The notes under the pieces: model-generated
Database searches by the model: none
Seen by the model: only the letters and a program-made list of their open reading frames with translations
Told to the model about the DNA's origin: nothing
DNA from: Alloascoidea hylecoeti
Lineage: Eukaryota
NCBI GenBank assembly: GCA_001600815.1
Contig: BCKZ01000003.1
Coordinates: forward strand, 62,001-126,000
Reading direction: 5' to 3'
Length of the DNA: 64,000 nt
Translations under genes and position numbers: made by a program
Shown here: piece after piece, positions 10,564-52,239 of the stretch
Position numbering within the stretch: the first letter of the stretch is position 1
Layout of the letters: every line of letters starts with the position of its first letter

Positions 10564-10635
10564 CTCGGCAACGGGGAATTGAACCCCGGTCCCCCGCGTG
10601 ACAGGCGGAAATTCTAGCCACTAAACTATTGCCGA
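10564..10635 (-). tRNA. tRNA-Asp(GTC)
   Basis: Reverse complement TCGGCAATAGTTTAGTGGCTAGAATTTCCGCCT-GTC-ACGCGGGGGACCGGGGTTCAATTCCCCGTTGCCGAG forms a cloverleaf and is followed by a T-run terminator. Confidence 0.95.
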
Positions 10636-11143: not shown

Positions 11144-11227
11144 GATGCGGTGGCTCAATGGTAGAGCTTTCGACTCCAGCTAATGGTTGAAATCGAAGGG
11201 TTGCAGGTTCAATTCCTGTCCGTGTCA
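11144..11227 (+). tRNA. tRNA-Trp(CCA) with 12-nt intron (11180-11191)
   Basis: GATGCGGTGGCTCAATGGTAGAGCTTTCGACT-CCA-G[intron]ATCGAAGGGTTGCAGGTTCAATTCCTGTCCGTGTCA closely resembles yeast tRNA-Trp; downstream TTTTT terminator. Confidence 0.93.
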
Positions 11228-49086: not shown

Positions 49087-49302
49087 TTTACTTTCAATAT
49101 TGTGATATCTTGTTCATATAAATAGTGGAGGATTAAAAATAAGTTTACTTCCTTACGTTTTCCTGTTTTACTCTTTTTGAGTAACGAAAAGTAGCCTCCT
49201 CACGTGTTCCACGAAGAAGCCATCAGCAATCATATCCAAATATTCACTTTAAATCTAAATAAAATATATAAATAAAATAAAATATAAAACCCAATGAAGA
49301 AG

Positions 49303-50076
49303 TCACAAATCCGCATCATCTTCATCTGGTAAAGGCATGGCAGTAGCCTGGTCCATTTCCTGCTGATATTTATTCATCAGTTCCGCATCGACTTGAACCT
49401 CAGGAGGAGCCAAAGCAGGAGAAGCTGCAAACTCCAATTGAGAAGTACCAACCAATTTTCTTGATAACCATAAAAATGGTTTTTCAAAGTTATAGTTGGA
49501 TTTGGCTGAAATATCATAATACTGTAAGTTCTTTTTCCTATGAAATGTAATTGTTTTTGCTTTTACTTTTCTCTCTTTAACATCAACTTTATTCCCACAT
49601 AAAACAATTGGTATATTTTCACAAACTCGTACTAAATCACGATGCCAATTGGGGACATTTTTATAGGTTATACGTGATGTTACATCAAACATGATTATGC
49701 CACATTGTCCATTTATATAATAGCCATCTCGTAAACCTCCAAATTTCTCTTGTCCTGCTGTATCCCATACATCAAATTTGATTTCTCCATAATTCGTATA
49801 GAAACTTAATGGATGGACTTCAACTCCTAAAGTGGCGAAATATTTCTTTTCAAATTCTCCAGTTAAATGACGTTTAACAAAAGTAGTCTATAATAGAAAA
49901 TGTTAGTTAGTTAGTTCATAAAAATGGTAAAAGTATGATGATCTACAATCTAAATCTTCCAAGCTTTAATCATGAATGATTTAAAAAGCTGATCTAATTA
50001 TGAAAATGTTACCTACTTTACCAGTCCCACCATCACCTACTAAGACTAATTTAAAAGTTGGGATTTGTTCAGTCAT
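49303..50076 (-). CDS. GSP1: Ran GTPase; exons 50076-50017 and 49887-49303
   Basis: [42 protein letters not shown], and acidic tail DEDDADL. Confidence 0.97.
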
Positions 50077-50292
50077 TTGTTAAGTGTAATGTAAATGTTG
50101 TTTGATTCTGATCTGCAACTTAATATGTGATGAAGAAGGAAAGTATCAAACAATTGAATTTAAATTATTTCAATTGTAAGAGGTTGTCTAGGTAAATCCT
50201 TAACATATCATTCATGATCATGATGATTTATACTAATATTTACTAATGAAAATAATGATAATAATAATAATACTTAAACAACTACACAATCT

Positions 50293-50791
50293 TTATACAG
50301 TTCTGTTATATTGTGGTATAGGAGGTGGAGGCATACCAGCCATAGTTGGAGGAGGAGGTAATTTTCTTGCTTCAGCTATATCATAAGGATTTGTAGATTC
50401 ATGAGATAATTGTTGTTGTTGTTGTTTTTTATAGGTTACATGAACTCCTGGTATACCAGAATTATAAATTTCCATTATATCTGGTGTTATTGATTGATAT
50501 TGATATTGACCTTGATTTTCAATAGGAATATTGTTTTCTCTAGCAGCATCTTTTTTATAATTTTAATTAGTAATGAAGAAAAATGTATATATACTATGGA
50601 ATGTAATGACTTACTTTCATAATAATCGCAGACTAGTTTAACATGTTGTCTTCCTGATGCGTGAGATTTCCTCACACTCATAGAATCATGTGTTAAAACA
50701 ACTTGGCAATAATCACAGAAATAGTAAACTAGAAGGAGGTTAGTTTAAGAGCATGATATTAGAAATAACTTGGGATACTTATTTTAGGCAT
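50293..50791 (-). CDS. YHC1: U1 snRNP protein C; exons 50791-50783, 50723-50615, 50549-50293 (intron 1 read as AT-AC)
   Basis: Zinc finger [27 protein letters not shown] and Pro-rich tail [14 protein letters not shown]; the spliced CDS is 375 nt and in frame. Confidence 0.9.
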
Positions 50792-50848
50792 TATTTATAT
50801 TTATATTTATATTTATATTTATATTTATATTTATATTTATATTTATAT
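50792..50848. repeat. (TTTATA)n hexamer tandem repeat, about 9 copies
   Basis: Directly visible; abuts the YHC1 start codon. Confidence 0.9.
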
Positions 50849-50978
50849 GGTGGTAGTGATAAGATTGATATGTGTAAATATAGGAACAGTATGGTAAATA
50901 TCATCACTTATACCCACACGACGACGCGTCTTGTCTTTTCATTATTTATCAGCATTTATATTGGTTACTTGAGATAAA

Positions 50979-52177
50979 ATGTCAGGATCTAAAAATATTG
51001 ATAGAGCAGCAGATCATTTAAACAATACCCTTATATCTAAAGGTTTCATAAAAGAAGAAGAACGATTACTGTTTGCATCAATATCAACAGATTTAAATGA
51101 ACTTTTATCATCAAATTTACAAAATAATTTACCAAATAATGAGCAGGAAAAAGATATTTTAAATTCCGAAATAACATATAAAAATGATAAAGTTATTATA
51201 AATTTAATTTATCAATTAGTTCAAGCATTGGAAAAAAGTAAAAAACAAAAAGATTTATTGATATCTAAAATTGAAGAAAAACAAAATAATGAAATTCAAT
51301 TAAAACAAGAAAGGATTAGAATGATTGAAAGAAATCAGATATTGGAGAATAAAGTGAATAGTTATGAAAATCAAAAGCAGTATGTATGGTAACGATTGAT
51401 ATTAGTGATGGGTGATGGTGACGATCTAACATAAGCTCTAGAGTATACTTGACAAAAGTCAAAGAATATGAATTAAACCAAAAAGGATTAAAAGAAGAGG
51501 TTGTTAAAGTTAAGAGCTTCAACGACAGTGTTCGGGCTAAAGTTCAGAATGAGCTACGGAAAAGGGATACTAAAAACAAACGTTTAAAAGACCGGTTACA
51601 AGATGCACGGAAATCCAAGATGATTTCAGGGATTCAATTACAACAAGAAAACGGACTATCGAGGGAGGAAGTTGAAGCGGCGCTGGGACAGGACAACACC
51701 AACTCCGAGATTATTCAGTTGGGCGCGGAGGAACTGTTTGGGAGCACCAACACTCTGCTGTTGAATTTGGCGTTGGAGAAACAAGAATTGGTGCAGATGC
51801 TGAAGAACATGCAGCAGTATATCAGAGACGCCGCCCAGAGCACGCAGCAACAAACACAGCTGCCGCAGCCGGCGGATTACCTGGAGCCCGTGGGCGAGGA
51901 GGCCCGCGTGGGCGAGGAGGCCCCCGACCGGCCGGACCTCGTGCAGGTTCTGGTGGCTTCGGAGGATCTGGAGACGGTGCGCGCGGAGACCGCCGAGAGC
52001 CTGGTGTTCTTCAGGGAGTTCGTGGCCCATGTCGGGGCCATGGCCCCCGCGGACTACGGGGAGAGGCTGGCGGAGATCGCGGCCCTGAAGCAGAGCCTGG
52101 CCACCACCACCGCCAACTGGAAGACGGCCATCGAGACGATGGAGACCTGGAGAGAGTACAGGGTTACCCGGGAGTGA
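50979..52177 (+). CDS. ADIP/SSX2IP/Msd1/Atg25-like coiled-coil protein; exons 50979-51379 and 51442-52177
   Basis: HLNNTLISKGF...NDKVIINLIYQLV followed by coiled coil (NELRKRD); intron GTATGT...TCTAAC...TAG joins the two ORF-track ORFs in frame. Confidence 0.65.
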
Positions 52178-52239
52178 GCGCACGTGCCGGCGCAAAGAAC
52201 GCCAAAACCCATCACCTCCACCGCATCCCAACTACGCAA

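What the first reader, a model, noticed from the sequence alone, without database searches (positions are those of the whole stretch)
50724..50782. Non-canonical AT-AC intron in the U1-C (YHC1) gene: candidate splicing autoregulatory switch
Seen in sequence (minus strand): ATG CCT AAA|ATAAGTATCCCA...AACTAAC CTCCTTCTAG TTTAC|TAT TTC TGT GAT TAT TGC. A 59-nt ATAAGT...AC intron gives exactly the canonical U1-C start MPK-YFCDYC. ATAAGT is the common GTAAGT donor with G1 changed to A, paired with a terminal AC. Competing sites exist: the weak GTATCC donor (50778) with TAG (50729) gives in-frame MPKIIYYFC (+3 aa before the zinc finger), while AT-AG and GT-AC choices frameshift to early stops. Established: U1-C stabilises and proofreads the U1/5' splice-site duplex, and G1A/terminal-C reciprocal suppression is known for the yeast major spliceosome. 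Inference: productive U1-C mRNA may depend on U1-C-controlled donor choice, forming a feedback loop. GTATCC also resembles a U12-type donor, so a relic minor intron is an alternative.
Basis: partly seen in the sequence, partly recalled or inferred. Interest (0 to 1): 0.85.

Follow-up and report, generated by a model that had tools for sequence, protein, structure and literature searches.

The report
Likely AT-AC intron in yeast U1-C gene
The gene for the splicing protein U1-C in this yeast-like fungus most likely carries a rare intron that starts with AT and ends with AC, an oddity shared with at least one distant relative, but no RNA data were available to prove it and nothing shows that it acts as a regulatory switch.

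Summary
On the minus strand, ATG CCT AAA (50791-50783) is followed by a 59-nt ATAAGT...ACTAAC...AC segment (50782-50724). Removing it gives the canonical U1-C start. The GT(50778)-AG(50729) pair also stays in frame, adding 3 residues. The two mixed pairs hit early stops. Contigs of two DNA samples agree with every base, so 50782 is not an assembly error.

No RNA run holds the locus, so the splice junction is unproven.

Comparative evidence favours AT-AC. Pfam zf-U1 puts the exon-2 start at profile position 4. The canonical spacing occurs in 95 of 150 relatives. The closest relative's DNA (L001, Geotrichum-like) has the same ATAAGTAT...AAACTAAC...AC arrangement at the same codon boundary. Related yeasts have intron-free or curated canonical N-termini.

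Against: an AG 5 nt before the AC is also conserved, and a curated Trichomonascus model uses the +3 form.

This scan found AT-AC introns in U1-C before, in filamentous ascomycetes. I found no report in print. The autoregulation and U12-relic ideas have no support here.

Verdict: probable U2-type AT-AC intron, a new member of a known kind.

The parts
50783..50791 (-). Exon 1 coding part: ATG CCT AAA (M-P-K)
   Evidence: The same three codons lie directly before the same intron start in L001.
50724..50782 (-). Proposed intron 1, 59 nt, AT...AC, phase 0 between codons 3 and 4
   Evidence: The length falls in the size class of this window's short introns of 55-70 nt. DNA confirmed in two runs.
50775..50782 (-). 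5' splice site ATAAGTAT: the GTAAGT-type consensus with A at +1
   Evidence: All 8 bases are identical in L001. /ATAAGT is the stated consensus of U2-type AT-AC introns (passage of PMC5029451).
50777..50778 (-). Competing GT donor (GTATCC), 4 nt inside the AT site
   Evidence: It lacks G at +5. L001 has GTATTC here.
50739..50744 (-). Branch-site motif ACTAAC (branch A at 50740), within a 10-nt block TTAAACTAAC
   Evidence: The 10-nt block is identical in L001. The same motif class occurs in other introns of the window.
50729..50731 (-). Upstream TAG, 11 nt from the branch A and 5 nt before the AC end; the competing acceptor
   Evidence: L001 also has an AG at the same 5-nt distance.
50724..50725 (-). 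Terminal AC of the proposed intron, 16 nt from the branch A
   Evidence: L001 ends CAC at the equivalent place.
50615..50723 (-). Exon 2: U1-type zinc finger (YFCDYC...DYYE)
   Evidence: Pfam PF06220 zf-U1, E 9.7e-16. Residues 8-42 of P0001 align to profile positions 4-38 of 38.
50550..50614 (-). Intron 2, 65 nt, canonical GTAAGT...TACTAAT...AAG, phase 1
50293..50549 (-). Exon 3 coding part, ending with stop TAA 50295-50293; proline-rich C-terminus
   Evidence: Weak similarity to the C-terminal parts of the Blastobotrys and Wickerhamomyces U1-C proteins.
50792..50848 (.). Perfect hexanucleotide microsatellite (9.5 copies) directly abutting the start codon
   Evidence: Public contigs break here. 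It belongs to the promoter or 5' leader region. No role was tested.

Best explanation
Window 50293-50791 (minus strand) is a three-exon U1-C (Yhc1) gene. Its first intron, 50782-50724, is a major-spliceosome (U2-type, 'type II') AT-AC intron.

Proposed mechanism:
1. U1 and later U6 recognise AUAAGUAU, which is the lineage's GUAAGU consensus apart from position +1.
2. The branch A of ACUAAC (50740) attacks at A50782.
3. In the second step, the non-Watson-Crick pair between the first and last intron bases (A with C instead of G with G) makes the spliceosome skip the nearer UAG. It ligates at UAC|UAU, joining codon 3 to codon 4.
4. The product is the canonical U1-C N-terminus, with M-P-K directly before the zinc finger.

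Shown here: the sequence signals, the reading frames, the correctness of the DNA, the fit to the protein family, and conservation of the arrangement in one distant relative.

Inferred: that RNA is actually cut at these sites, that the major spliceosome does it, and the A-C pairing logic. That logic comes from S. cerevisiae mutant work (Parker and Siliciano 1993; Chanfreau 1994), which I recall and which is cited in the passages.
For: 1. Only the AT-AC pair gives the family's N-terminal register. Pfam zf-U1 aligns the first exon-2 residue to profile position 4 of 38, leaving positions 1-3 for M-P-K. Blastobotrys P0153 and the contiguous ORF P0074 align 1-38 to 1-38, whereas the +3 model P0057 loses its M-P-K from the alignment.
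2. Of the 150 listed relatives (583 hits at E<=1e-3), 95 have M-x-K/R plus exactly 2 residues before the first Cys. Only 1 (P0057) has 5 residues.
3. L001 is the best of 435 confirmed metagenome hits, with 77% identity. Its ORF nearly matches the Geotrichum reessii model P0173. It has ATG CCT AAG, then ATAAGTAT, TTAAACTAAC and ...CAC directly before TAT TTC TGT. The rest of the intron has diverged and contains indels.
4. The 9 extra bases of the GT-AG reading are exactly the intron's own ends: ATAA at the 5' end and NN-YAC at the 3' end. Among the yeast-type relatives examined, the extra residues occur only where an intron is present or a gene model had to place one. The P0074 ORF, read as one continuous frame, and the Blastobotrys protein model are canonical.
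5. The GT alternative has donors GTATCC and GTATTC, without G at +5. Clear introns nearby use GTAAGT, GTATGT or GTAGGT.
6. /ATAAGT is the reported consensus of U2-type AT-AC introns.
7. In the filamentous-fungus locus L054, an ATAAGT...CTAC pair is the only GT-AG, GC-AG or AT-AC pair that reaches the canonical M-P-K plus zinc-finger frame. No GT-AG or GC-AG pair does so at all. So fungal U1-C genes with an obligatory AT-AC pair exist.
8. The DNA is confirmed in two runs.
Against: 1. No RNA evidence of any kind could be obtained.
2. The Trichomonascus vanleenenianus protein P0057 starts M-P-K plus three residues before the finger. Its annotation used RNA-seq intron hints and manual curation (passages of PMC13130702). 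I could not see whether this particular gene was checked, or whether the pipeline allowed AT-AC.
3. An AG lies exactly 5 nt before the AC in both DNA sequences examined (window and L001), although the spacer before it differs by a 3-nt indel. This keeps the GT-AG reading in frame in both and looks constrained.
4. Alanine substitution of residue 3 of S. cerevisiae Yhc1 is harmless (passage of PMC3985668). The N-terminus may therefore tolerate change.
5. The bare intron-like pattern is not rare by chance in this window.
6. Only one relative's DNA could be examined.
Confidence: 0.62

Rival explanations
1. The real and only first intron is the GT-AG one (GTATCC 50778 ... TAG 50729, 50 nt). This lineage's U1-C then carries three extra residues between M-P-K and the zinc finger. 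The ATAAGT and AC are coincidental parts of exon sequence.
For: The pair is in frame in the window and in L001. The AG sits 5 nt before the AC in both. The RNA-seq-hinted, manually curated T. vanleenenianus model has this form. Yhc1 R3A is viable.
Against: The donors lack G at +5, and position +5 differs between the two species (C versus T). The insertion would be unique: 1 of the 150 listed relatives has it. It would be split exactly by the intron, and it is absent from the P0074 ORF and the Blastobotrys model. Pfam drops M-P-K from the alignment of the +3 model. The Geotrichum reessii gene model did not use this pair and starts inside the finger instead. In the two DNA sequences, every position of the insert that stays the same is one that AT-AC splice signals would fix anyway. 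The two free bases differ between them (TT versus AT).
Confidence: 0.17
2. Both pairs are used. AT-AC gives canonical U1-C and GT-AG gives a +3 isoform, with the frameshifting AT-AG or GT-AC products as decay targets. The ratio may respond to U1 snRNP or U1-C activity. A milder variant: the upstream AG serves only early 3' splice-site recognition, while AC is used for ligation.
For: Both the AG at -5 and the AC are conserved, in a spacer that otherwise changes. The mixed pairs give early stops. The first intron of U1-C often has unusual donors in other ascomycetes. Among the 28 intron-bearing loci (of 80, not de-duplicated), 2 are AT, 3 are GC, and several are weak GT donors such as GTAACC, GTACCT and GTACGC. 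Cross- and auto-regulation through splicing is known for other snRNP proteins (abstracts of PMC3798272 and PMC5473595).
Against: No isoform data. No significant RNA structure around the sites (z-scores -0.32, -0.85 and +0.49). The filamentous-fungus AT-AC case L054 has no AG after its branch site and no in-frame GT-AG pair, so the dual arrangement is not general. The sign of the proposed feedback is undefined. In S. cerevisiae, A at +1 with an AG acceptor is blocked at the second step (recalled).
Confidence: 0.15
3. A U12-type (minor spliceosome) intron or its relic.
For: GTATCC at 50778-50773 resembles the first six bases of the U12-type donor consensus (quoted). AT-AC ends are typical of a subclass of U12 introns.
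Against: The AT site reads ATAAGTAT, not ATATCCTT. The GT site reads GTATCCCA here and GTATTCCA in L001. The branch site is ACTAAC, as in the ordinary introns of the window. Yeasts are stated to lack the minor spliceosome (passage of PMC5029451). Rfam found no minor snRNA in the window, but a 64-kb window is a very weak test.
Confidence: 0.01
4. An artefact or a dead gene: a sequencing error at the splice sites, or a pseudogene while a second intact U1-C gene does the work.
For: No whole genome was available to look for a second copy.
Against: Two DNA runs agree base for base. The same ends occur in L001. All three exons are open, and the finger scores 57.7 bits against Pfam.
Confidence: 0.03

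Closest known systems
U2-type ('type II') AT-AC introns of animals, e.g. in SCN4A and SCN5A; 24 catalogued in five species (Sheth et al. 2006, PMC1557818, passages)
   Same: AT and AC ends on an otherwise ordinary major-type intron. The donor is /ATAAGT, the consensus quoted for this class (PMC5029451). The ends are conserved between distant species.
   Different: This one sits in a yeast-type genome, is very short (59 nt), has a strict ACTAAC branch site 16 nt from the end, and has a conserved AG 5 nt upstream of the AC. Splicing is not demonstrated.
Engineered G1-to-A plus terminal G-to-C actin intron of S. cerevisiae (Parker and Siliciano 1993; Chanfreau et al. 1994). Recalled, and cited in the passages.
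   Same: It supplies the mechanism assumed here: an A-C pair between the first and last intron bases replaces G-G and redirects 3' site choice away from an AG.
   Different: Those were laboratory mutants with reduced efficiency. Here the pair would be natural, required for an essential gene, and conserved.
Natural AT-AC intron nested in the RPL30 intron of S. cerevisiae (Gould et al. 2016, PMC5029451, passages)
   Same: An endogenous AT-AC junction in a budding yeast that lacks the minor spliceosome.
   Different: The RPL30 event makes up about 1-2% of transcripts, is non-coding, and its donor does not resemble /ATAAGT. Here the donor matches the consensus and the junction would be the productive one.
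AT-AC first intron of U1-C in filamentous ascomycetes
   Same: Same gene, same few bases after M-P-K, same ATAAGT donor and AC end.
   Different: There the intron is in phase 1, one base further on (after the first base of codon 4). Most relatives have GT-AG at that site: 23 of the 26 phase-1 loci. L054 has no upstream AG. Here the intron is in phase 0 and has a conserved in-frame GT-AG alternative. Common descent versus independent origin is open.
U12-type AT-AC introns
   Same: The terminal dinucleotides only.
   Different: The donor and branch-site consensus are not met (see the membership test).
Splicing feedback loops of snRNP protein genes (U1C acting on U1-70K, PMC3798272; U11-48K and U11/U12-65K, PMC5473595; abstracts only)
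   Same: A spliceosome component whose own pre-mRNA carries competing splice sites, some of them unproductive.
   Different: Those loops rest on measured isoforms and conserved enhancer elements. Nothing of that kind was shown here.

Membership tests
U1-C / Yhc1 (Pfam PF06220 zf-U1) | N-terminal C2H2 U1-type zinc finger scoring above the curated cut-off | tested here: met
   57.7 bits against a cut-off of 22, E 9.7e-16, profile positions 4-38 of 38. 583 relatives at E<=1e-3.
U1-C / Yhc1 (Pfam PF06220 zf-U1) | M-x-K/R plus two residues before the first Cys, at the protein's N-terminus | tested here: inconclusive
   Met if AT-AC is used, not met if GT-AG is used. 95 of the 150 listed relatives have this spacing.
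U2-type (type II) AT-AC intron | AT at the 5' end and AC at the 3' end, at positions that restore the conserved reading frame | tested here: met
U2-type (type II) AT-AC intron | Donor equals the major-type consensus except at +1 (/ATAAGT) | tested here: met
   ATAAGT at 50782-50777. Consensus as quoted in PMC5029451. The local consensus GTAAGT/GTATGT is seen.
U2-type (type II) AT-AC intron | Major-type branch site at a normal distance from the 3' end | tested here: met
   ACTAAC, with the branch A 16 nt from the AC. Other introns of the window have ACTAAC or ACTAAT 8-20 nt from their ends.
U2-type (type II) AT-AC intron | Both ends conserved in orthologues | tested here: met
   1 of 1 close relative with DNA available (L001) keeps AT, the branch block and AC. 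This is a very small sample.
U2-type (type II) AT-AC intron | RNA is actually joined at these borders | not testable with these tools
   No RNA run holds the locus and no contig of two metatranscriptomes could be laid on it.
U2-type (type II) AT-AC intron | Removal by U1/U2/U4/U5/U6 rather than by the minor spliceosome | not testable with these tools
   Inferred from the signals and from the stated absence of the minor spliceosome in yeasts. No genome was held to search for snRNAs.
U12-type intron | Donor /RTATCCTT | tested here: not met
   The AT site is ATAAGTAT. The GT site is GTATCCCA in the window and GTATTCCA in L001.
U12-type intron | Branch site of the TCCTTAAC type close to the 3' end (consensus recalled) | tested here: not met
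   The only branch-like motif is ACTAAC.
U12-type intron | Minor snRNAs present in the genome | not testable with these tools
   No genome held. The window itself holds only two tRNA matches.
Autoregulatory unproductive-splicing loop | Alternative isoforms exist and their ratio depends on the gene's own product | not testable with these tools
   Only the potential exists: two of the four site pairs give early stops. No RNA data.

The most novel reading that the evidence does not exclude
Ascomycete U1-C genes keep a non-canonical first intron because it reads out U1 snRNP or U1-C activity. In this yeast lineage that would explain why the AT donor, the embedded GT, the AG at -5 and the terminal AC are all retained. 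The choice among the four site pairs (canonical protein, +3 isoform, or two stop-containing mRNAs) would then set U1-C output. A weaker form: the upstream AG is needed for early 3' site recognition of an intron that ligates at AC, a two-signal 3' end not described for major-type introns.
Probability: 0.1. Interest if true: 0.85.

Novelty: new member of a known kind. Interest (0 to 1): 0.55.

Why it matters
If the junction is confirmed, this would be a natural, obligatory AT-AC intron removed by the major spliceosome in a yeast-type genome. It would sit in the gene for the protein that helps U1 read 5' splice sites.

The papers I could search describe only an engineered case and a 1-2% side product in S. 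cerevisiae. None links AT-AC to U1-C or YHC1 in fungi.

It has a practical side too. Gene predictors appear to mishandle this gene:
- The Geotrichum reessii model starts inside the zinc finger.
- The G. candidum gene is labelled 'no similarity'.
- Many filamentous-fungus models read through the intron.
- The Trichomonascus model may carry three spurious residues.

The conserved AG five bases before the AC is a small, testable puzzle about how the second splicing step chooses its site.

Tried and rejected
- Whole genome: none held. No search was possible for a second U1-C copy, other AT-AC introns or minor snRNAs.
- RNA evidence: no RNA holder listed. No contig of metatranscriptomes X7 and X8 could be laid on 49200-51000, not even on the neighbouring Ran gene. 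This says nothing either way.
- Word-based protein search with the 42-aa exon-2 frame, longer proteins: no candidate.
- Earlier-findings look-ups by place, by DNA and by Blastobotrys protein, plus one word search: nothing.
- RNA folding of the intron with its flanks in the window, L001 and L054: z-scores -0.32, -0.85 and +0.49. No support for a structural switch.
- Window-wide frequency of the AT-AC intron-like pattern: 2 found against 0.94 expected, so not informative by itself.
- My open-frame screen for unbiased intron donors in the window was too noisy to use: 60 GT-AG, 162 AT-AC and 27 GC-AG candidates, mostly inside long ORFs.
- Supplement searches of the Trichomonascus paper (12 of 14 files) and the Blastobotrys paper (12 of 15 files) for the gene ids and for AT-AC gave no hit. 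The unsearched files may bear on the question.
- The G. candidum supplement gives only span and protein length for YHC1 (932 nt, 272 aa). That leaves 113 nt of intron and cannot tell the intron type.
- L001 upstream region: no large ORF, so no synteny check was possible.
- Lineage of the window: exon 3 matches the Blastobotrys and Wickerhamomyces proteins equally weakly. The Atlas look-up says only Ascomycota. I therefore do not name an order for the window.
- U12-type reading, assembly error and pseudogene: considered and rejected (see rivals).

Full report
**Observation.**
- Start: ATG 50791-50789, CCT, AAA 50785-50783.
- Donor region: ATAAGT 50782-50777, with an embedded GT at 50778-50777.
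- Branch motif ACTAAC 50744-50739.
- TAG 50731-50729, AC 50725-50724, then TAT TTC TGT from 50723.

A script spliced the four possible site pairs together with the ordinary second intron.

| Pair | Bases removed | Result |
|---|---|---|
| AT-AC | 59 | 124-aa protein, M-P-K directly before YFCDYC |
| GT-AG | 50 | 127 aa, three extra residues (I-I-Y) |
| AT-AG | 54 | stop after 14 residues |
| GT-AC | 55 | stop after 7 residues |

**Gene anatomy.**
- Exon 1 is the nine coding bases 50791-50783.
- Exon 2 (50723-50615) encodes the U1-type zinc finger. It matches Pfam PF06220 at E 9.7e-16.
- Intron 2 (50614-50550, 65 nt) is canonical: GTAAGT...TACTAAT...AAG.
- Exon 3 runs to the stop at 50295-50293.
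- A perfect 9.5-copy hexanucleotide repeat (50792-50848) abuts the start codon.
- Neighbours are a Ran-type GTPase gene downstream and a divergently oriented ADIP-domain gene upstream.
- The window has many short introns of 55-70 nt with GTATGT or GTAAGT donors and ACTAAC or ACTAAT branch sites close to the 3' end. A 59-nt intron with ACTAAC 16 nt from its end fits the local style.

**Is the DNA right, and is there RNA?** No whole genome is held. The run search listed four DNA holders and no RNA holder. Contigs of X1 (a metagenome) and X2 (the coded organism A) match the window over 49866-50784 with no differing letter, at word depths of about 10 and 9. Base 50782 is therefore real in two samples, though either may be the window's source. 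No contig of two metatranscriptomes from X1's study could be laid on the stretch. The splice junction could not be observed. This is the main gap of the report.

**Protein-family constraint.** Pfam aligns the first residue of exon 2 to profile position 4 of 38. Positions 1-3 are then left for exactly three residues.

A full HMMER search with the 35-aa exon-2 peptide found 583 relatives at E<=1e-3. The 150 listed break down as follows:
- 95 have M-x-K/R plus two residues before the first cysteine: 67 at the very N-terminus and 28 behind extra upstream residues.
- One has 0 residues between, one has 4, and one has 5.
- 27 lack the first CxxC...LTH motif.
- 25 have no such start within seven residues. 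Many of these are visibly read-through or truncated models.

The single protein with five residues is P0057, the Trichomonascus vanleenenianus model, which starts M-P-K-I-R-Y before YTCDYC.

**Relatives of the yeast type.** A profile-guided scan of metagenome contigs gave 435 confirmed loci, of which the best 80 were kept.

The best locus, L001 (77% identity), carries a U1-C gene whose ORF is nearly identical to the Geotrichum reessii protein P0173. Its coding sequence is GC-rich at third positions and lacks the second intron, so it is a distant relative of the AT-rich window. Even so, it reads ATG CCT AAG, then ATAAGTAT, a diverged middle with indels, TTAAACTAAC, and ...CAG ATCAC directly before TAT TTC TGT. 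The AT, the 8-base donor, the 10-base branch block and the AC are thus kept at the same codon boundary.

Other relatives:
- Blastobotrys adeninivorans P0153 and the contiguous ORF P0074 (from public assemblies) start with the canonical M-P-K plus two residues. Both align 1-38 to 1-38 with Pfam.
- The G. reessii model starts only at the methionine inside the finger.
- The G. candidum YHC1 gene is annotated 'hypothetical protein, no similarity'.

Both of the last two outcomes are what one expects when a predictor cannot place a non-canonical intron.

**Filamentous ascomycetes and earlier notes of this scan.** Two earlier notes (e1-7639716 and e1-7501389) report an AT-AC first intron in U1-C of filamentous ascomycetes, said there to be spliced and conserved. 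I checked this only in part.

The 80 loci (not de-duplicated; some are the same sequence from several samples) divide as follows:
- 52 have M-P-K contiguous with the finger.
- 28 have an intron:
  - 23 GT-AG, phase 1
  - 3 GC-AG, phase 1 (L034, L063, L069)
  - 1 AT-AC, phase 1 (L054)
  - 1 AT-AC, phase 0 (L001)

In L054 no GT-AG or GC-AG pair reaches the finger in frame. Only ATAAGT...CTAC gives the canonical start. Read-through protein models starting M-P-K-Y-K-S or M-P-K-C-K-S fit ATAAGT and GTAAGT donors at that site. L002 and L003 share their leader with the genomic locus L057 but lack its intron, so they look like spliced transcripts of that gene. The collection therefore appears to hold cDNA-type contigs. 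None was found for an AT-AC gene.

The filamentous-fungus intron lies one base further on (phase 1 in codon 4) than the one here (phase 0 after codon 3). Whether the two share an origin is open.

**Weighing AT-AC against GT-AG.** For AT-AC:
- It gives the family register.
- The donor is the local consensus apart from +1, and it equals the published /ATAAGT consensus of U2-type AT-AC introns (passage of PMC5029451).
- The nine extra bases of the GT-AG reading are precisely the ends of the AT-AC intron.
- The extra residues appear only where an intron is present or had to be modelled.
- Their only constant features in the two DNA sequences are those that splice signals would fix: the ATA codon, and a final codon ending in AC preceded by a pyrimidine.
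- The GT donors (GTATCC, GTATTC) lack the G at +5 that nearby clear introns have.

For GT-AG:
- It is in frame in both species.
- The AG lies exactly 5 nt before the AC in both, although the spacer upstream differs by a 3-nt indel.
- The T. vanleenenianus annotation used Augustus with RNA-seq intron hints plus manual curation (passages of PMC13130702).
- Residue 3 of S. cerevisiae Yhc1 tolerates alanine (passage of PMC3985668).

I could not learn whether that pipeline admitted AT-AC introns, or whether this gene was inspected. The supplements I could search hold nothing on it. My odds are AT-AC as the productive junction 0.62, GT-AG only 0.17, and both used 0.15. The conserved AG at -5 remains unexplained (note).

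**Mechanism proposed.**
1. U1 and then U6 pair with AUAAGUAU.
2. The branch A at 50740 attacks at A50782.
3. At the second step the first and last intron bases must form a non-Watson-Crick pair, G-G in ordinary introns and A-C here. The nearer UAG, 11 nt from the branch, is therefore passed over for UAC, 16 nt away.

The pairing rule comes from S. cerevisiae mutants and spliceosome structures. It is summarised in the passages of PMC11585973 and PMC5029451. The original papers are recalled, not read here. Every step of this paragraph is inference for this organism.

- *Autoregulation:* nothing tested here supports it. There is no isoform information and no significant RNA structure. The dual in-frame arrangement is absent from the filamentous-fungus case L054. 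Two hints keep the idea alive at low probability: the AG is conserved, and the first intron of U1-C carries unusual donors in several ascomycete lineages.
- *U12 relic:* the donor and branch consensus are not met. The GTATCC resemblance is not conserved. Yeasts are stated to lack the minor spliceosome.

**Known or new?** U2-type AT-AC introns are a known, very rare class: 24 among about 610,000 introns of five species, with fungal xylanase genes mentioned as suspected cases (passages of PMC1557818). For budding yeast, the papers I could read describe an engineered AT-AC intron and a 1-2% nested event in RPL30. Full-text searches combining AT-AC with U1C, YHC1, Saccharomycotina, Yarrowia, Blastobotrys or Geotrichum found no report of such an intron in a fungal U1-C gene. 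The library does not cover most subscription journals.

I file this as a probable new member of a known kind. It was seen earlier by this scan in filamentous fungi. Here it appears in a yeast-type genome, at a neighbouring position, with a conserved competing AG.

**Limits.**
- Only one relative's DNA could be examined.
- The lineage of the window is not fixed beyond Ascomycota with budding-yeast-type intron signals.
- No RNA data were available.
- No genome-wide view was possible.

Noticed in passing
window 50792-50848: A perfect hexanucleotide microsatellite (9.5 copies; ATAAAT on the gene's strand, so a run of TATA-like motifs) directly abuts the U1-C start codon. It lies in the 187-nt gap to the divergent neighbour gene. 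Public contigs break at it.
   Followed up: partly
window 51800-52200: A sharp GC island (66-68% GC against 22-36% around it) inside the second part of the ADIP-domain gene. Long ORFs are open on both strands there. The origin of the compositional jump was not examined.
   Followed up: no
window 49888-50016 (minus strand): The Ran-type GTPase gene has a 129-nt intron with donor GTAGGT and three overlapping tandem ACTAAC motifs before TATAG.
   Followed up: no
L054 31-104: A filamentous-fungus U1-C locus in which only an ATAAGT...CTAC pair restores the zinc finger. The short contig keeps this intron while the rest of the coding sequence is contiguous. It may therefore be an intron-retaining transcript or plain genomic DNA.
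   Followed up: partly
L002, L003 versus L057: L002 and L003 share their leader with the genomic locus L057 but lack its phase-1 intron (weak GTACGC donor). They look like spliced transcripts of that gene, which would make the metagenome collection a source of junction evidence.
   Followed up: partly
L034, L063, L069; L019, L022-L024, L033, L078: The first intron of U1-C in filamentous fungi often has unusual donors: GC-AG in three loci, and GTAACC or GTACCT (no G at +5) in six. Counts are not de-duplicated.
   Followed up: no
P0173 (Geotrichum reessii), GECA15s02848g (G. candidum), many models: Public gene models of fungal U1-C are often truncated, read through the first intron, or are labelled as having no similarity. 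This is probably because of that intron.
   Followed up: partly
window 50724-50746 (minus strand): A 7-bp inverted repeat pairs the branch-site region with the TAG-to-AC region. The fold is weak (about -3 kcal/mol), not significant, and not seen in L001.
   Followed up: yes
window 10564-10635 (-) and 11144-11227 (+): Two tRNA genes, the only Rfam matches in the window.
   Followed up: no
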